From NCBI GenBank assembly GCA_016214565.1, contig JACROE010000002.1, forward strand, positions 984,007 to 1,048,006: a stretch of DNA of 64,000 nucleotides, in the 5' to 3' direction. Shown piece by piece: positions 54,415 through 64,000 of this stretch. The notes under the pieces were generated by a model. It had not been told where the DNA came from. It saw only the letters and a program-made list of their open reading frames with translations, and made no database searches. Made by a program: the position numbers and the translations under genes. Each line of letters begins with the position of its first letter. The first letter of the stretch is position 1. Origin of the DNA: Candidatus Kerfeldbacteria bacterium. Lineage in GTDB: Bacteria; Patescibacteriota; Patescibacteriia; UBA10025; JAHIVO01.

Positions 54415-55722
54415 TTAGTATAGCGCTTCAATAACTTCTCGCAAGTGTTTCAGTCGAGGAGAATAAAACTCAGACTCAGTTATATGTTGCGAGGCAAACA
54501 GCGCGTTCTGGGGCTTGTGTTTGCGTAACCGCTGGTACTTCCGAGGATAATGACGTTCAATGCTACCAAATGGAAGTATAAAAATTCGATCTTTTTTAAG
54601 CTGATCGATTAAGGCGTCTTCAGATTCCATGGCAGACCCCTGAAGATTTTTTTGCACTAAAGCAATTCCGGTATCGTATAAGCCATCGTGGTCAAGTAAA
54701 ACAGCATACGGAACGTCAAAAACTCTTAATAACTCGACGTACAAATCCATGTTGCTTTTACCGTACGTTTGAATAACTTTAATATCTTTATCGCCATGAT
54801 AAAAACGATCAATTAAGCCGCGCATCAAAATATGATCAGAGGGTCCCTCTACCAAAAGGACGCTGTCCGAGAAAAACATTTCCAAATTGTCCGCATTAAG
54901 CTCTTGTCTGAGACGGCTGTAATTAATTCGATGGCCACTAATCCGAGGAGAATGCACGCGCGTAGAAATACCATCACGGGTTACTCGAAAAACGCGGTGT
55001 AAATTAGTTGCCGTAATAAATAATGGTGAATGAGTCGTAATAAATATTTGATCTCCATCGTTTTCCTTTTCGAGGATTGAATAAAGCCGTTTGACTAAAG
55101 CTGGATGCAGATGAATTTCCGGCTCTTCAAGTAATAATATTGTGTATTGAGGATGAAAAAAATACAGTAAAATTGTAAAAATTTGCTGAAACCCGTCACC
55201 AAGCCGTTCAAACGTCCTATCGACTCCCCCTTCGTGAACTACCGTACGACGAAAAAAATCATCCGACAGTTTAATCTTTGGGAAATGCTTTTCTATTGAT
55301 TTTTTGAATTCTCGATAACGATGGGGGTAATCATGTTGAAACTTTTTATAAACATTTTGCAATTCAGATGCTGACACGGGATATACAGCTGAAATACGCT
55401 TAATGTGCTTTTGCATTAGTGAACGAACACGATTAATTGGGAATCGCTTACCATTTAAATTCGCAATAACATTCTGTCCTCGCTGAACAATCTCCAAAGT
55501 TCGTCGTGTTGACCCAAAAACGGAAAAAACAATGCGTAATTGAGTTTGAATGTAATTAAGTCGACCTGGATTAGCTTGATATAACTGACTAATTGCATCA
55601 AGAATATTAGTTTTACCTGAATTATTAGGGCCAATAAAAATATGCATTGAACCGGGATTTGGCAGTGCAAACGGAACTAAAATACTCTTATACTTTTCTA
55701 TACCAATGTCAATTATCCTCAT
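54415..55722 (-). CDS. OLD-family (overcoming lysogenisation defect) ABC-type ATPase + Toprim nuclease
   Basis: Walker A GPNNSGKTN, Walker B/D-loop ILLLEEPEIHLHP, H-loop TTHSP. C-terminal Toprim LLVEGPSDHILM ... LLDHDG (E and DxD). Confidence 0.7.
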   Translation of the reverse strand: MRIIDIGIEKYKSILVPFALPNPGSMHIFIGPNNSGKTNILDAISQLYQANPGRLNYIQTQLRIVFSVFGSTRRTLEIVQRGQNVIANLNGKRFPINRVRSLMQKHIKRISAVYPVSASELQNVYKKFQHDYPHRYREFKKSIEKHFPKIKLSDDFFRRTVVHEGGVDRTFERLGDGFQQIFTILLYFFHPQYTILLLEEPEIHLHPALVKRLYSILEKENDGDQIFITTHSPLFITATNLHRVFRVTRDGISTRVHSPRISGHRINYSRLRQELNADNLEMFFSDSVLLVEGPSDHILMRGLIDRFYHGDKDIKVIQTYGKSNMDLYVELLRVFDVPYAVLLDHDGLYDTGIALVQKNLQGSAMESEDALIDQLKKDRIFILPFGSIERHYPRKYQRLRKHKPQNALFASQHITESEFYSPRLKHLREVIEALY

Positions 55723-55734
55723 CGCCGTAAATTT

Positions 55735-56235
55735 TTATGAAGCCTGGTTATGGTGAATTGATTTATAAAATGTATCAAGCGCGCGCATCTGTGAACGATT
55801 CGGGCATGCACTTGGACGGTGAGCCTGGATATGTCGAACTGCTTGTTGAGGTGTCATACGTCGAGCCAAAATGTAGTATGCGGCTGCTAATGTTGGTGCT
55901 CGACCATTACCTGCATTACAGTGAATATAGCAGTGCATATGGTGTCGAACCATATCTTCGATAAAATGCGAACCAATAATTAACTGAACCTGAGAGGGTG
56001 GGGTAAAATCTGCTGTGGGTAGCCATAAAAATGAAGCGACCCCAGAAGGCTTATCTATTTTTTCCTCCTGCAGATCAATGTCAGCCTTCATACCTAAAGC
56101 AAGCAATTTTTCAAAATGAGCACGTGTGGCAATAGTAGTACCAATGTATACATACGGATCAATTTTTGAAAAATTGAATGGTTCTATACGTACATTTGGG
56201 TACGACAGCGCCGGGATTTCAAAACGTTTAGACAA
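55735..56235 (-). CDS. Dual-specificity (Cys-based) protein phosphatase domain protein
   Basis: CX5R P-loop HCNAGNGRAPT, with an upstream Asp-containing loop. Confidence 0.7.
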   Translation of the reverse strand: MSKRFEIPALSYPNVRIEPFNFSKIDPYVYIGTTIATRAHFEKLLALGMKADIDLQEEKIDKPSGVASFLWLPTADFTPPSQVQLIIGSHFIEDMVRHHMHCYIHCNAGNGRAPTLAAAYYILARRMTPQQAVRHIQAHRPSACPNRSQMRALDTFYKSIHHNQAS

Positions 56236-56248
56236 GAACGTGTGGTTA

Positions 56249-57943
56249 TTATTTAGCTATGTGGACTGATTTACCGGGTTGCAATTTGTGAGGATTGTGA
56301 CTTTTTGTTTGTGTGGGCATACTCGCAGAGCTCTGAATAGGTTTGATTACTGGCCGCGATGGAGAAGGGCGGACAATCTTGGGCTCAACCGTGAGCCGCG
56401 GTTTACCTGAAAATGGCGCTGGTTTACGTGCTAATGCCTGGCTTAATGAAATGGTTGTAGTGGCTGGCTCGATCTCTACGTCAGTCAAAGATTTAAAGTC
56501 AACAGCTGGTTTTGCCTGGACAGCAGGCTTCGGAACAAATGGTTTATTCACTCTCGGGGTCATGCGTTGTTCTGAAGGCACAATCTGATGTTTGCGCTTA
56601 TAAGAACCTTCATCACCTGCAATTGCGCGATTATCAGCGTCAGCCGATGCACGATACATATCCTGAACCCCACTCCAGCGCAATATTCGATCCTCCACAT
56701 CCGCTCGTGCCTGGCTATACCGCTCCCGAGATACTCTAATAACTTTATCCCTATTATTCGTTTGCCCTTCCACTGGAGGTAGGGTCGTAGCAGAAAAAGG
56801 AGCTGAAGCGACACCATCAATCATTAGTTTTAAGTACACATCATATTTTGTCAGATTTACCAAATCCTCTTCAATAAAGGTTGGGAAAAACTCCTTTGCA
56901 AGAAATTCGGAATCGGCTGCTCCTACGCGAAAGCACATGATGGTTCCCACGTTGCCAAATACTGCTGCTCTCACCTCTTCGTCAAGTTGTTCAATGTACT
57001 GATGAGCAATAATTAAGTTAAGACGATATTTACGAGCTTCGGACAAAATACTGGCAAAACTTTCTGTAGCAAAGTTCTGAAACTCATCAACATACAAATA
57101 AAAGTCATTACGCTCTTTTTCGGGGATATCTACTCGGCTCATAGCTGCCAACTGCAAACGTGTAATCATCATTGCCCCGAGCAAAGCCGAATTATCTTCA
57201 CCGATTCTACCTTTAGAAAGGTTAAGAAGCAGAATTTTATTTTGGTCCATCAGCTCACGCAAATTAATTGTACTTTTTGATTGACCAACGATATTTCGAA
57301 TAACTGAGCTAGACAGAAACTGTCCAACTTTATTTTGAATAGGGGCAATAGCTTCATTTCGAAAACGATCATTATATGAGGCGTACTCATCGATCCAAAA
57401 ACTTTTGACAATCGGATCGGTGATGCGGTCAACTACTTTCTTTCTATAGTTTTTATCAACCAAAATGCGCGCTATACCAAGCATAGTTGATCCAGGATAC
57501 TCTAGAAGCGCAAGAATACAATTATTTAATATGTATTCCATTCGAGCGCTCCAGACCCCCTCCCATATTTTCGTAAATACACCCATCAAACCAGAGGCTA
57601 CCAAATGACGCTGATCTGGATTGACACTTTCGAGCACATTAAAGCCTATCGGAAACTCCAGGTCGGCCGGATCAAAATACACTACATCATTAATCCGATA
57701 CGAAGGAATAAAATCAAGCACTTTTTCTATCAAGTCACCGTGAGGATCAACGAGTGCTAAGCCCTTCCCCGACCGAATATCCGATATGACCATGTTTTCA
57801 ATCACGGTGGTCTTGCCCATGCCAGTTTTCCCAATCAAATACATATGACGACGCCGATCGTCAGTCTTGATGCCAAACGTTCGATTGAGGTTACGAAAGT
57901 TTGTTTTGGCAAAAAATGTTATTTCGTTTTGGTCAGCAGGCAT
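56249..57943 (-). CDS. Soluble type-IV coupling protein-like ATPase (VirD4/TraD/TraG family, TraG-D_C-like) with a Pro/Ala-rich C-terminal tail
   Basis: Walker A YLIGKTGMGKTT...LALVDPHGD. Walker B-to-motif-C region LYVDEFQNFATE...LNLIIAHQYIEQLD. No N-terminal TM. Last roughly 130 aa are low-complexity (KPFVPKPAVQAKPAV...). Confidence 0.6.
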   Translation of the reverse strand: MPADQNEITFFAKTNFRNLNRTFGIKTDDRRRHMYLIGKTGMGKTTVIENMVISDIRSGKGLALVDPHGDLIEKVLDFIPSYRINDVVYFDPADLEFPIGFNVLESVNPDQRHLVASGLMGVFTKIWEGVWSARMEYILNNCILALLEYPGSTMLGIARILVDKNYRKKVVDRITDPIVKSFWIDEYASYNDRFRNEAIAPIQNKVGQFLSSSVIRNIVGQSKSTINLRELMDQNKILLLNLSKGRIGEDNSALLGAMMITRLQLAAMSRVDIPEKERNDFYLYVDEFQNFATESFASILSEARKYRLNLIIAHQYIEQLDEEVRAAVFGNVGTIMCFRVGAADSEFLAKEFFPTFIEEDLVNLTKYDVYLKLMIDGVASAPFSATTLPPVEGQTNNRDKVIRVSRERYSQARADVEDRILRWSGVQDMYRASADADNRAIAGDEGSYKRKHQIVPSEQRMTPRVNKPFVPKPAVQAKPAVDFKSLTDVEIEPATTTISLSQALARKPAPFSGKPRLTVEPKIVRPSPSRPVIKPIQSSASMPTQTKSHNPHKLQPGKSVHIAK

Positions 57944-57946
57944 ACA

Positions 57947-59344
57947 TTATGCAGGTAAGTTAGAGGGTGGTGGGGCCTTTTCTTCGACTGCCATACTAGG
58001 TCGAGCAGACTGCGTAGATACAAGTGATTCAACAGGGAGAGAAATAGGCGGCTGTCCTTTCTTAGCGTCAACATGCTGCACGGCGGATACTTTCACATCC
58101 TTAACCGGGAAGTGCCAAAGACTTGCCAACTCCTCTGTGTTTAACATATATCCATGGTATCCACGTTCAATGCTACGCTTTCGATACGCCCTTAATACAC
58201 GCCGCTTACGGCCGATCTCACGCCACTTAAAGTAATCAACGCTTGTTTTAGTCTTTTTTTGAACGTCAAATCCGTTCAAATTTTGAGTATTAAATTGAAA
58301 GATTGCGCCATGAATCGCATTTACTCCTTTATCCTTATTCAGCTTACCCTTCGGCGCTCCATAAATCATGCGCAGTTTACTGCGAAATCCAAGCTTTGAA
58401 ATTTTAAATCCAATCGCTGACACGATCTCCTGCTCTTCAGGTGATAAGTGCTGCATCAAAGATGGAGGATCATGAGAATCCTTTTTACCCGCCTCGCCCA
58501 TTTCTGTGGTAGGCAAAAAAGAAGCTGTAAACGACTCGGTAAGTCCTTTACCTACCTCACGAGGAAAATACATTAAATCCACACCATGCTTTTCGGATTT
58601 GCGGCCAATCAATTTATTTATTTCATGCAAACCTTTTTCTCGCCAGTGATTCCCCTCTGGCTCAATCAATAACTGTAGCCACATGTGTTCACCTGGACCC
58701 ATCCGACTTAATATTTCCATCAGTGAAGCTAGTGGATCAAGTAAACGCTGAGATAGTGAATGCTCAAACATGGGGTAGGTACGGATCGGATAGCAGTCCT
58801 TATTTGTCATTTTGTACTCAGTCCCCCAAATATCCCACTCTGAATTTTCTAATTCCATAGGTTTAGGCAGCATGTCTACATAGTCTTCTACTTCAGTTAT
58901 TTCTGCGTCAGGGTACTGAGCATACATCGCTGCTTCTATCAAATCGCGGAATTTACTAGGGGTGTAGATGAGAAACTGAATGTATCCTTCAATACTAACT
59001 ATTTCTAAACTAAGTGAGTACTGCTGGTATCCTTCAATATATCGCTCAACCATGTTGCCCCGCTTTTTTATGGCATATAAATGGGCAAATATTTGTTCAA
59101 CGGCTTTAGGGCTTAACTCATTCATTTGTGGAATATCTATTGCCAAAAGAGAATAATCAAGCTCTTCCTCAAATTTAATACGGACATGCTCAAGTCGCCA
59201 TACCCAGAGCCCCCAAAGCAGTAAACAAATAAATACAATCCAGCCACCGTTCGCAAATATTAAAAACATTGCGCTGAAAGGGTTATCAGCGCTCGGTAAA
59301 CCATTGACGATTGCAGTTGGATCAAATACAAGGAACTGAAACAT
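57947..59344 (-). CDS. Hypothetical N-terminally membrane-anchored protein (operon partner of the coupling ATPase)
   Basis: Hydrophobic N-terminal 50 aa (1-2 TM), then an approximately 400-aa soluble domain with no recognisable family. Overlaps the downstream ATPase gene by 4 nt. Confidence 0.45.
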   Translation of the reverse strand: MFQFLVFDPTAIVNGLPSADNPFSAMFLIFANGGWIVFICLLLWGLWVWRLEHVRIKFEEELDYSLLAIDIPQMNELSPKAVEQIFAHLYAIKKRGNMVERYIEGYQQYSLSLEIVSIEGYIQFLIYTPSKFRDLIEAAMYAQYPDAEITEVEDYVDMLPKPMELENSEWDIWGTEYKMTNKDCYPIRTYPMFEHSLSQRLLDPLASLMEILSRMGPGEHMWLQLLIEPEGNHWREKGLHEINKLIGRKSEKHGVDLMYFPREVGKGLTESFTASFLPTTEMGEAGKKDSHDPPSLMQHLSPEEQEIVSAIGFKISKLGFRSKLRMIYGAPKGKLNKDKGVNAIHGAIFQFNTQNLNGFDVQKKTKTSVDYFKWREIGRKRRVLRAYRKRSIERGYHGYMLNTEELASLWHFPVKDVKVSAVQHVDAKKGQPPISLPVESLVSTQSARPSMAVEEKAPPPSNLPA

Positions 59345-59367: not shown

Positions 59368-60486
59368 CTATGCAGCAACGGGTGAATAGGTTCCATCGGG
59401 TAGTTTAGTAAATTTTGACTTATCGGTCAGCGCTAGGTGTATGGTGTTCTTTTTTACCATACGCTGTTTTAAAACAAGCTGAACTAGCTCATCTCGACTC
59501 AAAGGCCGACCGGCATCACGAAGAATTTCTTGCAAAACCGCTGCAACCACACCAGGCTTATACCCCCATTCCTTTAACGCGTAGATACCCCGCCCAACCA
59601 GCACATAGTGATCATTGAGAATAAGCTCATTATGTACTGTTGGTGGGTAAGCACGACGATTGTCAAATTTCGTATCATTAATTACTTTAGTAATTTCCGT
59701 AAAATGCATCGGCTTACCGGCTTTTTTTAGTACGAGATATATTTTGTCGTTCATGCGTTTTGGAACAATGCTGCCCCAGTCGCTTATGCCGTATTCATCA
59801 AAAGGATTTTTCGAAATTCTTTGACCAACTTGAACATATGCGATAATTGCCTCATCAGTTAGTTGTCCCTGATTTTGATTATACACAGTCGACTTTTTTA
59901 TTTCTGCTAAAAGCTCAGTAGCTGAAAGTGGTTTACCAATGCGTGTAATAATTGAAAGCGATTCATTAATTATGTCTCGCAATAAATGCATCGGTGCATG
60001 CACTGTTCGCCATGATTGACGAAATTCTGCCGATTCTTTGATCAGTTTAAAAGTTTCGTCAAGCAATTCAGATATAATAAAGAGTAAATTATTACGATGA
60101 ACATCGGTCTCCCCAACCACTTGAAGTAATTGCTGCAGCAATAAATTTTCTGGCATTATTCCGCCATGTTGGTCAAGCACTGAACTTACGGCGCTGCGTA
60201 TGTGAGTTATAATTCCAGCAAACTCTTTCGACTTTCTAATTTTAGTAATGGCGGTGTTTTCAATTTGCCGCACACGTTCGCGAGTTACTTTGTATGTAGC
60301 GCCAATCTCCTCTAGTGTTTCATGGGGTTTACCACTTAAACCATATCGACGTCTAAGAACGTCGTCTTCTCGAGGAGTAAGCGACTTAAATAACTGTGAT
60401 ACGACATCGGTGGGGTTAAATTGTTCGATGTCGGTTGATTGTTTACTGGAAATGACCCGATCAAGGATAGAGTGTTGATCGTCCAT
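59368..60486 (-). CDS. Two-HTH protein: N-terminal sigma70 region-4-like HTH, C-terminal HARE-HTH-like domain
   Basis: LTPREDDVLRRRYGLSGKPHETLEEIGATYKVTRERVRQIENTAITKIRK is sigma70 region 4.2. C-terminal KPMHFTEITKVI...YVLVGRGIYALKEWGY resembles HARE-HTH (GRGxYxL). Confidence 0.5.
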   Translation of the reverse strand: MDDQHSILDRVISSKQSTDIEQFNPTDVVSQLFKSLTPREDDVLRRRYGLSGKPHETLEEIGATYKVTRERVRQIENTAITKIRKSKEFAGIITHIRSAVSSVLDQHGGIMPENLLLQQLLQVVGETDVHRNNLLFIISELLDETFKLIKESAEFRQSWRTVHAPMHLLRDIINESLSIITRIGKPLSATELLAEIKKSTVYNQNQGQLTDEAIIAYVQVGQRISKNPFDEYGISDWGSIVPKRMNDKIYLVLKKAGKPMHFTEITKVINDTKFDNRRAYPPTVHNELILNDHYVLVGRGIYALKEWGYKPGVVAAVLQEILRDAGRPLSRDELVQLVLKQRMVKKNTIHLALTDKSKFTKLPDGTYSPVAA

Positions 60487-60641: not shown

Positions 60642-61538
60642 TTATGATCGGCGACGGAATTTGTACCAATCTACGAGAAATGGACTGCCAATAAATATTG
60701 ACGAATAAGTACCAACAATGATACCGAGAATTAAAGCTAGTATAAAGAAACGAATTGAATCTCCACCAAAAAAATATAAGGCAACAAGTACCAATAATGT
60801 GGTTAATGACGTATTCAGTGAACGGACGAGTGTTTGATTAACACTTAAATTTACAATTTCAGCAAATGGTCTATGACCATGGGTTTTTAAGTTTTCTCTC
60901 GTCCTATCATACACGACTATTGAATCGTGAACCGAAAAGCCCAATACGGTTAGTACGGCTGTGATAAACAAAATATCAATTTCAACATTGAAAAATTTCC
61001 CCAGAAATGCAAATAACCCCAGCACAATAATTACGTCATGAAAAAGTGCAATTAAAACTCCAAATCCGTACATCCATGAACTTACCATTTTATTTCCTGA
61101 CTTTCGAAAAGCAAAAGTAATGTACAAAAGTATAAAGGAAAGTACAAGAATTATAGCCATTCCTGCTTTATCACGAAGCTCCTTGCCAATCGTCGGTCCA
61201 ATCGATTCAAAAGATTGAGCAGTTGTACCGGAAAATTTTTCACTCAAAGAATCGAGTACCCGCTGATATTCCTCCTGACTTAATTCTTTCATGCGTATAC
61301 TTGCATCATGAGTAGCCAGCGGTTGAACTTGGATACCACCTAGTCCGAGCGGTGCCAATTGGTCTAAAATTTCTTGGGGCTGTGGACGCACGTCAGAAAA
61401 GCTCACCCGAATAAGGCTTCCACCGGTAAAATCAATACCCAGCTTAAGCCCTCCAATCGCAATCATAACGATGCTTGAAACAATAAGAACAGCGGAGACA
61501 CCGTACCACCAAATTCTTTTACCAATTATGTTATACAT
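60642..61538 (-). CDS. secF: Protein translocase subunit SecF
   Basis: GIDFTGGSLI and the six-TM SecF topology. Confidence 0.85.
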   Translation of the reverse strand: MYNIIGKRIWWYGVSAVLIVSSIVMIAIGGLKLGIDFTGGSLIRVSFSDVRPQPQEILDQLAPLGLGGIQVQPLATHDASIRMKELSQEEYQRVLDSLSEKFSGTTAQSFESIGPTIGKELRDKAGMAIILVLSFILLYITFAFRKSGNKMVSSWMYGFGVLIALFHDVIIVLGLFAFLGKFFNVEIDILFITAVLTVLGFSVHDSIVVYDRTRENLKTHGHRPFAEIVNLSVNQTLVRSLNTSLTTLLVLVALYFFGGDSIRFFILALILGIIVGTYSSIFIGSPFLVDWYKFRRRS

Positions 61539-61551
61539 ACATTAATTGGGG

Positions 61552-63204
61552 CTAATTATGTTTGATATTAATAAATAACTTTGGATGACGCTCAAACCAC
61601 GGCCCACTGATAACACGCAAAAAAGTATGGCTTACAGTAATAGCCGAAAACATACTAATCAGAACTCCCAAGCCTAATGTAATAGCAAAACCCTGCACCA
61701 CGCTAGTCCCAAACCAACCCAATATCGCACAAGTGATCAATGTTGATATATTCGAATCTCGAATTGATGGCCAAGCACGTGCGAAACCTGCCTCAAGAGC
61801 TCCAAACAATCCGCGGCTATTACGAAGCTCCTCACGACTCCGTTCAAAAATAAGCACATTTGCGTCTACGGCCATACCTACCGACAAAATAAAACCAGCC
61901 ACACCCGCTAAAGTTAATGTAATGGGTATTAATTTAAATAACGCTAAGGTTATGAGGGCATAAATTACTAAGGCAATAGAGGCGATTAGGCCAGGTAATC
62001 TATAGTAAGCAATCATGAAAACCACAACTAATAAAATACCTGCGATTCCGGCAAAGAAACTTTTTTCTACGGACTGAGTACCAAGCGTAGCTCCAACTTG
62101 TGACTGAGAAACAAGTGCAATGGGAACCGGCAACGCGCCAGCATTAAGCCGCTGAGCAAGTAAACGCGAATCTTCAAGGGTAAAGTCGCCCGTTATTACG
62201 GCGCTACCACCTGATATCGCCTGATTGACTCGGGGTAATGAAATCGGCGATCCATCAAGAAAAATTCCAACAATTTGGTTAACATTTCGCGCTGTAATGT
62301 CCTCAAAAAGTTTAGCACCCTCGCTATCAAACTCTAAGCTCACTTGGGGTTGATTAGTGGTTTGATCAAAAGTAACGATCGCACGATCTAAGTTCTTTCC
62401 TGATAACTCTGTATTTGCCCACTCAACGCTCCCCTCAACAGATTGTTTAGCGAATAAAATGTGGCTAGCACGAGCCTCATCATTGCGCGCATCAGTTTTC
62501 TTAATAATATGATAACCGAATTCAGATTCTACAATGTCCGGGTATACTTGACCGACCTCTAGTTTATCGAAAACAACGTCAGCAAATTCAGCGACCATAA
62601 CCTCTCGTGTAAAAAAATCTAGGTCGCCGCCACGTTTTTCGCCCGTTTCCTGGTCCGTGTTTCCCGGATCCTGAGAATATTGGTTTGCTAATGCAGCAAA
62701 ATCAGCATCGGGCTTAAGCGCATCAGCAAGCACGGATTTCGCCTGTTCAAAAGCGGCGGCATTGGACGCTTCGGCTTGCGCCTTCTCTTCAGATGTTAAT
62801 TCTTTTGTCTTTTGTTCACGAAACTCGAGTAATGGCGTTTCACCAATAGTGTCAATCGCTTGCTGAACATCGTGTATACCGGCTAACTCAACAATCACTC
62901 GCCACTGATCGCCGGATTGATTAGTCTGTACCACTGGCTCAGAAACACCGAGCGCGTTTACCCGGCGTTCAACGACATCACGAACACCATCAAGTGCTGA
63001 CACCTGCTCGGTCGTAGCAATTGCTGAGGTATCTGCATTATAAACCAATTGCGTTCCACCCTGGAGATCAAGGCCCAGATGAACTTTTACCTCTCGAAAA
63101 TAGTTGCCGATAGAAATATCAGGTCCATTCGGATAGCTCGCCAAGCCAGCCAATATAGAAATCGCAATAATACTGATAAAACTTAGCCAAATTCGTTTAC
63201 GCAT
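61552..63204 (-). CDS. secD: Protein translocase subunit SecD with a parvulin-like insertion in the periplasmic P1 domain
   Basis: LGLDLQGGTQLVY and a conserved P1 base and TM2-6. Residues about 138-252 read GGDLDFF...FGYHIIKKTD...ASHILF, which are parvulin PPIase motifs. Confidence 0.85.
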   Translation of the reverse strand: MRKRIWLSFISIIAISILAGLASYPNGPDISIGNYFREVKVHLGLDLQGGTQLVYNADTSAIATTEQVSALDGVRDVVERRVNALGVSEPVVQTNQSGDQWRVIVELAGIHDVQQAIDTIGETPLLEFREQKTKELTSEEKAQAEASNAAAFEQAKSVLADALKPDADFAALANQYSQDPGNTDQETGEKRGGDLDFFTREVMVAEFADVVFDKLEVGQVYPDIVESEFGYHIIKKTDARNDEARASHILFAKQSVEGSVEWANTELSGKNLDRAIVTFDQTTNQPQVSLEFDSEGAKLFEDITARNVNQIVGIFLDGSPISLPRVNQAISGGSAVITGDFTLEDSRLLAQRLNAGALPVPIALVSQSQVGATLGTQSVEKSFFAGIAGILLVVVFMIAYYRLPGLIASIALVIYALITLALFKLIPITLTLAGVAGFILSVGMAVDANVLIFERSREELRNSRGLFGALEAGFARAWPSIRDSNISTLITCAILGWFGTSVVQGFAITLGLGVLISMFSAITVSHTFLRVISGPWFERHPKLFINIKHN

Positions 63205-63338: not shown

Positions 63339-64000
63339 TTATTGCTTAATTATAACGGTGTCCCCTATCTGCATCCAGTCATAGAGCCACACGGCATCCT
63401 TATAAGCAATATTAACGCAGCCGTGACTCATTGGTTTGCCAAAATTATTGTGCCAGTAGGCACCATGCAGCAACCGCGGTCCATCAAATCTTAGATTGTA
63501 CAAGGTGTTGGGCAAATAATAATCAGGTCCAGAATACAAATGTGAATAAATTTTTTCAGATATTTGGAATGTTCCTGGCCGTGTTGGAGTTTTTGGTAAA
63601 CCTGTGGAAACAAGGAAGCTCTTTACCATACGCCCGTTCTCAAAGGCTTCCAGCCGTTGATCGGATAAATCTACCTGAACATAACGAGCGTGGCTTAAAG
63701 CGCTTTCAGCCCGCCACGTCGAGGGGCCAGTTACCACTTCATCTTTACCATCTCCATCCAAATCTCCTGTCGCAATATTTACACCGCCTCTAAAATCTTT
63801 CCCGTAGGAAAAGAAATTTAGTCCAGTTAAAGTTCCATGTCCAGAGTAGCCGAGTACTTGTGGCCCACCGCCTTTACCAGCAGCTACGATAACTTCGTCA
63901 AACCCGTCACCGTTCATGTCGGCGCCAGCCATTCGAATGCCACCATGAAAATTATCGGGAAACGTTTTATAGGTCGAGAGCTGAGTATTGATACCATTTC
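63339..64000 (-). CDS. L,D-transpeptidase (YkuD) catalytic domain fused to FG-GAP repeats; 5' partial, running off the window end
   Basis: C-terminal RLLHGAYWHNNFGKPMSHGCVNIAYKDAVWLYDWMQIGDTVII (His/Cys of the YkuD domain). Upstream FG-GAP units (DLDGDGKDEVVTG, MNGDGFDEVIVAAGKGGGPQV). The frame stays open beyond 64000. Confidence 0.75.
   Translation of the reverse strand, partial: NGINTQLSTYKTFPDNFHGGIRMAGADMNGDGFDEVIVAAGKGGGPQVLGYSGHGTLTGLNFFSYGKDFRGGVNIATGDLDGDGKDEVVTGPSTWRAESALSHARYVQVDLSDQRLEAFENGRMVKSFLVSTGLPKTPTRPGTFQISEKIYSHLYSGPDYYLPNTLYNLRFDGPRLLHGAYWHNNFGKPMSHGCVNIAYKDAVWLYDWMQIGDTVIIKQ

What the first reader, a model, noticed from the sequence alone, without database searches (positions are those of the whole stretch)
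62449..62793. SecD periplasmic head replaced by a parvulin-like PPIase segment, apparently circularly permuted
The TM1, P1-base and TM2-6 segments of SecD are conserved. Where the P1 head normally sits, the sequence reads ...DFAALANQYSQD...GGDLDFFTREVMVAEFADVVFDKLEVGQVYPDIVESEFGYHIIKKTDAR...ASHILF. These are hallmark parvulin motifs (GGDLG.F...F, FGYHII, HIL). The HIL strand comes after the core instead of before it. A prolyl-isomerase or chaperone module built into the translocon's substrate-contacting domain would be a striking fusion.
Basis: partly seen in the sequence, partly recalled or inferred. Interest (0 to 1): 0.6.

Follow-up and report, generated by a model that had tools for sequence, protein, structure and literature searches.

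The report
SecD carrying an inserted, permuted prolyl isomerase
The SecD protein-export subunit of this candidate-phyla-radiation bacterium keeps its normal outer "head" but has a complete parvulin-type prolyl-isomerase domain, with one strand moved from its front to its back, inserted next to that head; this probably puts a folding helper directly on the secretion machine, and I found no paper that describes it.

Summary
The motifs are real. They lie on the minus strand in SecD (61552-63204, 550 aa, residues 138-252). They match Pfam Rotamase_3 (E 5e-18) and solved PrsA and SurA parvulins (E down to 5e-14).

The claim that the P1 head was replaced is wrong. The head is intact (PF22599, residues 264-360, E 4e-28). 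The roughly 120-residue parvulin is inserted between the P1-base strand (LLEFRE) and the first head strand.

The circular permutation is supported:
- The native order lacks strand beta1.
- The near-invariant ASHILF strand follows beta4 as a hairpin.
- Moving or duplicating the segment restores full profile coverage and end-to-end alignment to Pin1At.
- The isolated insert folds with pLDDT 97 and keeps all strands paired.

The positions that line the catalytic site and proline pocket in Pin1 are conserved (H248, D179, H232, L195, M203, F207).

The architecture is common in Patescibacteria, including Kerfeldbacteria, Buchananbacteria, Moranbacteria, Falkowbacteria and Uhrbacteria. It occurs in single, double and larger forms, all annotated only as "SecD". 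No paper describing it was found.

Most likely it is a foldase tethered to the translocon, a covalent version of the PrsA, PpiD or SurA associations with SecDF. Enzyme activity and exact 3D placement were not tested. It is a new variant of known kinds, of moderate interest.

The parts
61552..63204 (-). secD gene, 550 aa plus stop codon
   Evidence: The ORF is listed. NCBIfam TIGR01129 (secD) scores 376 bits against a cutoff of 244. The protein is 100% identical to a Candidatus Kerfeldbacteria MAG SecD.
63136..63201 (-). TM1 (residues 2-23)
   Evidence: The AlphaFold2 model has a helix at residues 2-23. The sequence there is hydrophobic: RKRIWLSFISIIAISILAGLAS.
62809..62988 (-). N-terminal part of the P1 base (SecD_1st, residues 73-132), ending in the strand PLLEFRE
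   Evidence: Pfam PF21760 matches at E 1e-16. The segment aligns to T. thermophilus SecDF residues 30-120 and to E. coli SecD residues 232-282.
62449..62805 (-). Inserted circularly permuted parvulin domain with its linker (residues 134-252)
   Evidence: This segment has no counterpart in T. thermophilus or E. coli SecD. Pfam Rotamase_3 matches at E 5e-18. Residues 136-256 modelled alone give pLDDT 97.0 and pTM 0.89.
62485..62793 (-). Parvulin core in the order alpha1 to beta4 (residues 138-240). It contains D179, G192-G193-D194-L195, M203, F207 and F229-G230-Y231-H232.
   Evidence: Alignments to PrsA and Pin1At are. Conservation in 120 homologues: G193, G230 and H232 120/120, L195 and F207 118/120, D194 110/120, D179 103/120, M203 85/120.
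62449..62478 (-). Transposed beta1 strand (beta1', residues 243-252, EARASHILFA), carrying H248
   Evidence: Conservation in 120 close homologues: H248 116/120, I249 119/120, L250 115/120. H-I-L is invariant in 13 diverse clusters. The segment forms a strand in a hairpin with beta4 in both models. It aligns to ASHILI of Pin1At once the sequence is re-ordered.
62125..62430 (-). P1 head subdomain, retained (residues 259-360)
   Evidence: Pfam PF22599 matches residues 264-360 at E 4.4e-28. The model has strands at 259-268, 272-279, 286-292 and further on. BLAST against E. coli SecD aligns from residue 253.
61612..62115 (-). TM2-TM6 (SecD_SecF_C, residues 364-531)
   Evidence: Pfam PF02355 matches. 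The segment aligns to T. thermophilus SecDF residues 160-427. The model has helices from 376 to 532.
60642..61538 (-). secF gene, 298 aa, immediately downstream
   Evidence: Pfam SecD_SecF_C matches at E 1.4e-56, and the Sec_GG motif is also found.

Best explanation
This is a genuine SecD, encoded next to SecF. Its periplasmic P1 domain keeps both the base and the head. A complete parvulin-type PPIase domain (residues about 134-252) has been added in the connection that runs from the base strand (LLEFRE) to the first head strand.

The inserted domain is circularly permuted relative to every canonical parvulin. It starts with helix alpha1, runs through beta2, alpha4, beta3 and beta4 (FGYHII), and then turns back in a hairpin. 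That hairpin supplies the central strand beta1 (ASHILF, with the first active-site histidine) from the C-terminal side. The domain's entry and exit points therefore sit where the beta1-alpha1 loop lies in ordinary parvulins, which is next to the catalytic cleft.

Inferred function: the module acts like a PrsA, PpiD or SurA foldase that is covalently tethered to the translocon. It would bind unfolded secretory chains as they leave SecYEG and are handled by the SecD head, and it would probably catalyse their prolyl cis/trans isomerisation. This would happen in an organism with no outer membrane and a very small genome.

Shown here: the domain identities, the insertion site, retention of the head, the transposed and conserved beta1 strand, conservation of catalytic-site residues, and wide occurrence in Patescibacteria.

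Inferred only: the 3D position of the strand (from models and logic, because no coordinates could be inspected), enzymatic activity, substrate contact, and any coupling to head movement.
For: Architecture:
- Pfam finds SecD_1st at 73-132, Rotamase_3 at 140-239 (E 5e-18), P1 head at 264-360 (E 4e-28) and SecD_SecF_C at 364-531.
- TIGR01129 scores above its cutoff.
- T. thermophilus SecDF aligns on both sides of the insert.
- Foldseek matches the full model to SecDF structures, and to the isolated P1 domain 3aqo with a target-normalised TM-score of 0.69.
- In E. coli SecD, LEFR and the KQTREG segment are 22 residues apart. The equivalent points here are 123 residues apart.

Permutation:
- In the native order the Pfam profiles lack their N-terminal positions. 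In a self-concatenated copy, PF00639 is covered 1-97/97, starting at SHILF.
- The re-ordered sequence aligns end to end with Pin1At 1j6y (2-120 to 25-138, with ASHILF opposite ASHILI), with ESS1 and with S. aureus PrsA.
- H248, I249 and L250 are near-invariant in 120 homologues and invariant in 13 distant clusters.
- The strand is kept even where a loop of 40-60 residues separates it from beta4 (P0123 and P0155).
- None of the 31 diverse fusions inspected has an HIL strand before the first alpha1.
- AlphaFold2 places strands 230-240 and 243-252 as a hairpin.
- Residues 136-256 modelled alone give pLDDT 97 and pTM 0.89, and beta2 (194-198) remains paired although no SecD strand is present.
- Covariation links A246 to F198 (beta2), M203 and V211, and links S247 to T237. 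No top pair links the strand to the SecD flanks.

Active site:
- H248 corresponds to Pin1 H59, D179 to C113, H232 to H157, and L195/M203/F207 to L122/M130/F134, by alignment.
- These positions are conserved.

Generality:
- All 120 closest homologues carry Rotamase plus P1 head.
- 20 of 80 loci from representative genomes are fusions, from Buchanan-, Moran-, Falkow- and Uhrbacteria and other Patescibacteria.
- A double-parvulin family gives 120 further hits.

Functional precedent: PpiD/YfgM with SecYEG (PMC9643414), SurA with SecDF (PMC9987972), and PrsA-like Mpn444/Mdp proteins with SecDF in Mycoplasma (bioRxiv 10.1101/2024.09.05.611430 and 10.1101/2025.04.25.650208).
Against: - No atomic coordinates could be inspected. 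The placement of ASHILF in the beta1 slot rests on DSSP strings, confidence scores and topology logic.
- Re-ordering the sequence raises the profile score by only about 1.5 bits.
- Foldseek with the isolated model found only the tandem-parvulin protein 8hm3/8hm4 as significant. No canonical parvulin was significant. This is unexplained.
- The strongest covarying pair, 237-247, does not fit a simple H232-H248 cross-strand register, and it could be phylogenetic.
- The position equivalent to Pin1 S154 is Phe, as in Par10 and PrsA, and D179 is Gly in 16 of 120 homologues.
- Many inserted parvulins, such as SurA P1 and the PpiD parvulin, are catalytically inactive chaperone modules (my own knowledge), so activity is not assured.
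- I could not check whether the genome lacks a separate PrsA. Only this 64-kb window was scanned, and it holds no other parvulin.
Confidence: 0.7

Rival explanations
1. The inserted parvulin is a non-catalytic binding or holdase module, comparable to SurA P1 or the PpiD parvulin domain. It would enlarge the substrate-capturing surface of the SecD P1 domain without isomerising prolines.
For: Double-insert relatives carry a first parvulin that has lost the beta4 histidine and the GGDLG motif, so this lineage tolerates degenerate, presumably non-enzymatic parvulins. D179 is replaced by Gly in 16 of 120 close homologues. SurA P1 and the PpiD parvulin are inactive (my own knowledge).
Against: In the single-insert family both histidines, G192-G193-D194-L195 and F207 are near-invariant, and M203 is the majority residue, kept in 85 of 120. 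The closest solved relatives are active PrsA-type parvulins, at about 45% identity over the core.
Confidence: 0.25
2. There is no true circular permutation. ASHILF would be a vestige of the first strand of a lost second parvulin, or simply part of the linker to the head, and the parvulin core would be completed by another strand such as the SecD strand LLEFREQKT.
For: In tandem-parvulin proteins beta4 is followed at the same spacing by the beta1 of the next domain (8hm3 alignment; P0238; P0206). LLEFREQKT is followed directly by alpha1, which mimics a beta1-alpha1 order. The score gain on re-ordering is small.
Against: LLEFRE aligns to the conserved P1-base strand of T. thermophilus and E. coli SecD, and the Pfam rotamase profiles never align it (protein 4). 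The insert modelled without any SecD strand still forms a complete sheet at pLDDT 97. H-I-L is invariant across distant clusters and is retained across long loop insertions. A246 covaries with core positions 198, 203 and 211.
Confidence: 0.08
3. One reading: the P1 head has been replaced by the parvulin, so that the parvulin is the only substrate-contacting domain.
For: Only the local impression that parvulin motifs occupy the region after the P1 base strand.
Against: PF22599 matches 264-360 at E 4e-28. T. thermophilus SecDF head residues 160 onward align. 3aqo is matched with a target-normalised TM-score of 0.69. E. coli SecD aligns from the first head strand. All 120 homologues carry both domains.
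Confidence: 0.02
4. The insert is mainly mechanical or regulatory. As a rigid domain in the base-head hinge it would tune or gate the proton-driven swing of the P1 head, with no direct role in folding.
For: The insertion sits exactly in one of the two base-head connections. The base-head hinge is the pivot of the F-form to I-form movement seen in SecDF structures (my own knowledge; the 5xan and 5yhf structure titles appear).
Against: A purely mechanical role does not explain near-invariance of the catalytic and proline-pocket residues. It also does not explain repeated acquisition of further canonical, active-looking parvulins at the same place.
Confidence: 0.1

Closest known systems
SecDF of Thermus thermophilus and Deinococcus radiodurans (PDB 3aqp, 5yhf, 5xan)
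   Same: Same TM1, P1 base, P1 head and TM2-6 plan. The match is 4.7e-69 by sequence and Foldseek E is 3e-24. A separate SecF lies downstream, as in E. coli.
   Different: The base-to-head connection is 39 residues in T. thermophilus and 22 in E. coli. Here it is about 123 residues and consists of a whole parvulin domain.
PrsA lipoprotein foldases of Gram-positive bacteria (e.g. PDB 6vj6, 6xd8, 4wo7)
   Same: Closest parvulin sequences (E 5e-14, about 45% identity over the core). They share the same non-phospho-specific active-site type, with Asp at the Pin1 C113 position and FGYHII. They are extracytoplasmic, membrane-tethered and act on Sec substrates.
   Different: PrsA has the canonical beta1-first order, a flanking NC chaperone domain and a lipid anchor. 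NCBIfam PrsA models score only 41-50 bits against cutoffs of 343-361. Here the anchor is SecD itself and the strand order is permuted.
PpiD/YfgM and SurA associations with the Sec holotranslocon (E. coli)
   Same: Parvulin-containing chaperones positioned at the periplasmic exit of SecYEG/SecDF (PMC9643414 and PMC9987972).
   Different: Those are separate proteins that bind non-covalently and have large chaperone domains. The PpiD parvulin is inactive (my own knowledge). Here there is a single polypeptide with no SurA_N-like domain.
Mycoplasma pneumoniae Mpn444/Mdp 'dome' on SecDF
   Same: PrsA-like parvulin foldases physically coupled to SecDF in a bacterium with a reduced genome and no outer membrane.
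   Different: Those are large trimeric lipoproteins that are crosslinked to SecDF but not fused to it. They are unrelated in sequence outside the parvulin fold.
Tandem-parvulin SurA-like PPIase of Bacteroides fragilis (PDB 8hm3/8hm4)
   Same: It is the only significant Foldseek match of the isolated insert (E 1e-7, 111 columns, query-normalised TM-score 0.71). The sequence alignment runs through beta4 into the next HIL strand at identical spacing.
   Different: It is a soluble periplasmic chaperone with an N-terminal domain and two parvulins in canonical order. It is not part of a translocon subunit.

Membership tests
SecD (TIGR01129 / RND-type Sec accessory subunit) | Curated model score above its cutoff | tested here: met
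   TIGR01129 scores 376.3 bits against a cutoff of 244.4, over residues 43-528.
SecD (TIGR01129 / RND-type Sec accessory subunit) | TM1, a large periplasmic P1 with base and head subdomains, then TM2-6 | tested here: met
   PF21760, PF22599 and PF02355 all score above their cutoffs. The AlphaFold2 helices and strands agree. Foldseek matches SecDF and P1 structures.
SecD (TIGR01129 / RND-type Sec accessory subunit) | Partner SecF encoded adjacently or fused | tested here: met
   SecF lies at 60642-61538 on the same strand, with PF02355 at E 1.4e-56.
SecD (TIGR01129 / RND-type Sec accessory subunit) | Proton-motive-force-driven enhancement of translocation | not testable with these tools
   This needs genetics or biochemistry.
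Parvulin / PpiC-type PPIase (PF00639, PF13616) | Profile match above the gathering score | tested here: met
   PF13616 scores 66.1 bits (cutoff 22.5). PF00639 scores 60.1 bits (cutoff 21.7).
Parvulin / PpiC-type PPIase (PF00639, PF13616) | Two active-site histidines, a Cys or Asp, and the hydrophobic proline pocket | tested here: met
   H248, H232, D179, L195, M203 and F207 align to Pin1-type H59, H157, C113, L122, M130 and F134. They are conserved.
Parvulin / PpiC-type PPIase (PF00639, PF13616) | Canonical order beta1-alpha1-alpha2-alpha3-beta2-alpha4-beta3-beta4 | tested here: not met
   beta1 follows beta4. The profiles are covered only from position 9 (PF00639) or 25 (PF13616) in the native order, and fully only after duplication or re-ordering.
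Parvulin / PpiC-type PPIase (PF00639, PF13616) | Four-stranded antiparallel sheet with beta1 in the centre (3D fold) | tested here: inconclusive
Parvulin / PpiC-type PPIase (PF00639, PF13616) | Peptidyl-prolyl cis/trans isomerase activity | not testable with these tools
   An enzyme assay is needed.
PrsA foldase | Parvulin flanked by an N- and C-terminal chaperone domain, a lipoprotein signal, and a curated model above its cutoff | tested here: not met
   NF002846, NF002824 and NF003002 score 41-50 bits against cutoffs of 343-361. The flanks are SecD P1 base and head.
SurA / PpiD chaperones | SurA_N-type chaperone domain plus parvulin(s), soluble or with a single-pass anchor | tested here: not met
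   Pfam finds no SurA_N or PpiD domain. The SurA model NF008038 scores 34.6 bits against a cutoff of 394.

The most novel reading that the evidence does not exclude
In Parcubacteria-type CPR bacteria, SecD has absorbed the extracytoplasmic foldase. A catalytically active, circularly permuted parvulin sits in the P1 base-head hinge with its cleft facing the junction. The proton-driven swing of the head would then deliver the emerging chain to, or mechanically gate, prolyl isomerisation. This would make a single polypeptide that couples translocation to folding and replaces a free PrsA or PpiD. It would also be the first natural circular permutant of the parvulin fold. The double-insert relatives would be explained as a canonical parvulin nested in the beta4-beta1' hairpin of the permuted one.
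Probability: 0.3. Interest if true: 0.75.

Novelty: new variant of a known kind. Interest (0 to 1): 0.55.

Why it matters
Close cooperation between SecDF and extracytoplasmic parvulin foldases is currently inferred from crosslinks, pull-downs and in-cell tomography. Examples are PpiD/YfgM, SurA, PrsA and the Mycoplasma dome.

A natural covalent fusion, conserved across many Patescibacteria lineages, is independent evolutionary evidence that the two activities belong together at the translocon exit. It also fixes where on SecD the foldase works, which is the base-head hinge.

It offers a compact, single-chain system for testing whether head movement and folding catalysis are coupled. It also provides what appears to be an undescribed circular permutant of the parvulin fold, useful for studying how permutation and domain insertion arise.

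For annotation, these proteins are labelled only 'SecD', so the foldase capacity of CPR genomes is being under-counted.

Tried and rejected
- Head replaced: rejected.
- LLEFRE serving as parvulin beta1: rejected. Pfam never aligns it (protein 4), and it is the conserved SecD base strand.
- Same insertion hot spot as the large E. coli SecD P1: rejected. The extra E. coli residues lie before SecD_1st, and its base-to-head gap is only 22 residues.
- Foldseek against PDB for the isolated insert: it gave only 8hm3/8hm4 and no canonical parvulin. This is unexplained, and the paper on that structure is not held.
- Occurrence outside Patescibacteria: a few loci are labelled Binatia, Lysobacteraceae or Gammaproteobacteria. 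The relatives of the Binatia-labelled protein that carry a lineage name are almost all Patescibacteria, Uhrbacteria or Parcubacteria proteins, apart from one labelled Candidatus Eisenbacteria, so the labels are probably binning errors. I treated them as not established.
- Cluster look-up for taxonomy of the diverse forms: almost no names came back.
- Literature searches for a SecD-parvulin or rotamase fusion, and for circularly permuted parvulins: nothing found.
- Another parvulin gene in the window: none.
- Covariation analysis: supportive but weak (Neff 131), and the register it implies is ambiguous.
Full report
**Observation**

The finding's coordinates (62449-62793) read in frame on the minus strand. 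They correspond exactly to residues 138-252 of a 550-aa ORF at 61552-63204. That ORF is SecD:
- NCBIfam TIGR01129 scores 376 bits against a cutoff of 244.
- The best solved relatives are the SecDF proteins of T. thermophilus and D. radiodurans, at E 4.7e-69.
- A SecF gene follows at 60642-61538.
- The protein is 100% identical to a SecD of a Candidatus Kerfeldbacteria (Patescibacteria/CPR) genome.

All the quoted motifs are present, and they are not chance resemblances:
- Pfam Rotamase_3 matches residues 140-239 at E 5.2e-18, and Rotamase matches at E 4.3e-16.
- The segment finds solved PrsA, SurA, Par10-like and Pin1-like parvulins, with E-values down to 5e-14.

The P1 head is not replaced.
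- Pfam SecDF_P1_head matches residues 264-360 at E 4.4e-28.
- T. thermophilus SecDF aligns on both sides of the insert: 38-133 to 30-120, and 267-534 to 160-427.
- The full-length AlphaFold2 model (pLDDT 82.5) has the head strands and helices.
- Foldseek matches that model to SecDF structures, and to the isolated P1 crystal structure 3aqo with a target-normalised TM-score of 0.69.

Comparison with E. coli SecD fixes the boundaries. In E. coli, LEFR (residue 282) is followed after 22 residues by KQTREG...LTG, the first head strand. In this protein, LEFR (129) is followed after 123 residues by the homologous KQSVEG...LSG at residue 253. The parvulin is therefore an insertion of about 120 residues (about 134-252) in the base-to-head connection.

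**Circular permutation**

In the native order the parvulin profiles are matched only from position 9 of 97 (PF00639) or 25 of 116 (PF13616). The N-terminal beta1 strand with its HIL histidine is therefore missing in front. The preceding SecD strand LLEFRE is never aligned to it (protein 4).

Sequence tests:
- When the insert is concatenated with itself, PF00639 is covered 1-97/97 across the junction, starting at SHILF. Moving EARASHILF to the front gives the same full coverage, with a small score gain of about 1.5 bits.
- The re-ordered sequence aligns end to end with Arabidopsis Pin1At (residues 2-120 to 25-138, with 'dearASHILf' opposite 'dqvkASHILi'), with yeast ESS1 and with S. aureus PrsA.

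Conservation:
- H248, I249 and L250 are conserved in 116, 119 and 115 of 120 close homologues.
- They are invariant in 13 clusters that are only 38-48% identical to the query.
- The strand persists where a low-complexity loop of 40-60 residues separates it from beta4 (P0123 and P0155).
- None of the 31 diverse fusions inspected has an HIL strand before the first helix.

Models:
- AlphaFold2 places 230-240 (beta4) and 243-252 as a hairpin.
- Residues 136-256 modelled alone, with no SecD strand available, give pLDDT 97.0 and pTM 0.89, and beta2 (194-198), beta3, beta4 and 243-252 are all assigned as paired strands. In parvulins beta2 pairs only with beta1 (my own knowledge of the fold). The only strand left in this construct is 243-252, so it should occupy the beta1 slot.

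Covariation is a weak orthogonal check (157 sequences, Neff 131). It links A246 with F198 (beta2), M203 and V211, and links S247 with T237 (T/S against E/R). No high-ranking pair links the strand to the SecD flanks.

I rate the permutation at about 0.85. The caveat is that I could not inspect coordinates.

**Active site**

By alignment to PrsA and Pin1At:
- H248 corresponds to Pin1 H59.
- D179 corresponds to C113, with Asp as in PrsA and Par14-type enzymes.
- H232 corresponds to H157.
- F229 occupies the S154 position, as in Par10 and PrsA.
- L195, M203 and F207 correspond to the proline pocket L122, M130 and F134.

Most of these positions are strongly conserved. M203 is the weakest, kept in 85 of 120. 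The basic phosphate-binding loop of Pin1 cannot exist here, because the beta1-alpha1 connection is where the domain is opened and joined to SecD. This points to a non-phospho-specific, PrsA-like isomerase whose cleft lies near the junction with SecD.

**Distribution and variants**

- All 120 best database relatives (54-87% identity) carry Rotamase plus P1 head, and they are named only 'protein translocase subunit SecD'.
- A search of 1.84 billion cluster representatives with residues 100-300 gave 21 clusters at E <= 1e-30 and 679 at E <= 1e-10.
- Offline classification showed at least 46 fusion clusters among the top 150.
- In species-representative genomes, 20 of the 80 kept loci are fusions. 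They come from Candidatus Buchananbacteria, Moranbacteria, Falkowbacteria, Uhrbacteria, Parcubacteria and unnamed Patescibacteria.
- A few loci are labelled Binatia, Lysobacteraceae or Gammaproteobacteria. The relatives of the Binatia-labelled protein that carry a lineage name are almost all Patescibacteria proteins, apart from one labelled Candidatus Eisenbacteria, so I regard these labels as binning errors.

Besides the single form (about 550-590 aa) there are three others:
- double forms of about 650-735 aa;
- larger forms of about 780-800 aa;
- SecDF-fused forms of 905-1099 aa.

In the double forms the parts come in this order:
- a first core, usually degenerate, that again lacks a preceding beta1;
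- an ASHIL strand plus an active-looking core in canonical order, with PF00639 covered 1-95;
- a trailing, poorly conserved beta1-like strand before the head.

The simplest reading is an outer permuted parvulin with a canonical parvulin nested in its beta4-beta1' hairpin, but this was not modelled.

**Mechanism**

Shown here: a complete, conserved, catalytically plausible parvulin is built into one of the two connections between the SecD P1 base and head.

Inferred: it acts as a translocon-tethered foldase or PPIase for chains leaving SecYEG. It would be functionally equivalent to PrsA in monoderm bacteria, or to the PpiD/YfgM and SurA contacts with the holotranslocon, and analogous to the PrsA-like dome on Mycoplasma SecDF (PMC9643414, PMC9987972, bioRxiv 10.1101/2024.09.05.611430 and 10.1101/2025.04.25.650208).

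Rivals:
- a non-catalytic holdase surface (0.25);
- a hinge-tuning mechanical element (0.1);
- no true permutation (0.08);
- head replacement (0.02).

**Comparison and novelty**

The protein is a member of SecD, with all testable features met. The insert is a member of the parvulin superfamily by sequence and catalytic residues, but it fails the canonical strand order. It is not a PrsA, SurA or PpiD, because the curated models score far below their cutoffs and no chaperone domain is present.

Full-text searches found no description of a SecD-parvulin fusion or of a circularly permuted parvulin. The architecture is visible in precomputed Pfam annotations, so it is latent in databases rather than unseen.

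I classify it as a new variant of known kinds, with interest 0.55.

**Open points**

- Foldseek with the isolated model found only the B. fragilis tandem-parvulin PPIase 8hm3/8hm4 (E 1e-7, 111 columns). It found no canonical parvulin, although sequence search finds them easily. A possible reason is that Foldseek's structural alphabet is sensitive to the changed strand order. In that case 8hm3 might share the beta4-to-beta1 hairpin connectivity.
- Enzyme activity, substrate contact, the domain's position relative to the head, and whether these genomes lack a free PrsA all remain untested.

Noticed in passing
related proteins P0121, P0130, P0136, P0138, P0141, P0162, P0167, P0202; loci L011, L012, L014, L020, L023, L044, L053: These are double-parvulin SecD forms of about 650-735 aa. 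Each has a degenerate first core with no preceding beta1 (its beta4 His is lost). Next comes an ASHIL strand and a canonical, active-looking second parvulin. Last comes a poorly conserved beta1-like strand before the P1 head. This suggests a canonical parvulin nested in the beta4-beta1' hairpin of the permuted one.
   Followed up: partly
P0281 family, residues 291 and 298 of P0281: Two cysteines in the beta1-alpha1 loop of the second parvulin (ASHILvCwqGaknC) are each conserved in 110 of 118 double-form SecDs. They may form a disulfide in this extracytoplasmic domain.
   Followed up: no
P0158, P0203, P0246, P0233, P0190, P0219 (780-804 aa); P0122, P0187, P0202, P0245 (905-1099 aa): Some SecD inserts are larger still, at about 340-390 residues with further degenerate parvulin-like units. 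There are also single-chain SecDF fusions that carry the parvulin insert. P0190 additionally has a hydrophobic, TM-like stretch inside the head region.
   Followed up: no
P0216 (633 aa), P0234 (580 aa): These SecDs have an insert of about 130-140 residues at the same site that no longer matches any Pfam rotamase model. It may be a fully degenerated parvulin.
   Followed up: no
isolated-insert model m31cc32c8c67c against PDB: Foldseek finds only the B. fragilis tandem-parvulin PPIase 8hm3/8hm4 and no canonical parvulin, despite strong sequence similarity to PrsA. That solved structure may share the beta4-to-next-beta1 hairpin connectivity.
   Followed up: partly
window 54415-55722 (-) and 55735-56235 (-): An OLD-family nuclease-like gene (AAA_21/AAA_15 ATPase plus OLD-like TOPRIM) lies next to a dual-specificity phosphatase gene. 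This may be a defence locus.
   Followed up: no
window 56249-57943 (-) and 57947-59344 (-): A TraG/VirD4/TrwB-like type IV coupling ATPase gene is preceded by a 465-aa ORF with no Pfam match.
   Followed up: no
window 59368-60486 (-): A 372-aa protein combines sigma-70 region 4 with a HARE-HTH domain. It is encoded directly downstream of secF on the same strand.
   Followed up: no
window 63339-63932 (-): An FG-GAP repeat plus YkuD L,D-transpeptidase protein is encoded directly upstream of secD. No yajC-like gene was seen between them.
   Followed up: no
window 1-64000: ARAGORN finds no tRNA or tmRNA gene in the whole 64-kb window. Almost all long ORFs from about 6 kb onward are on the minus strand.
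   Followed up: no
L004, L011, L014, L038, L049: SecD-parvulin loci in MAGs labelled Lysobacteraceae, Candidatus Binatia or Gammaproteobacteria. The closest relatives of the L011 protein that carry a lineage name are mostly Patescibacteria, so these look like mis-binned or mislabelled CPR contigs. L011 and L014 have about 63-64% GC.
   Followed up: partly
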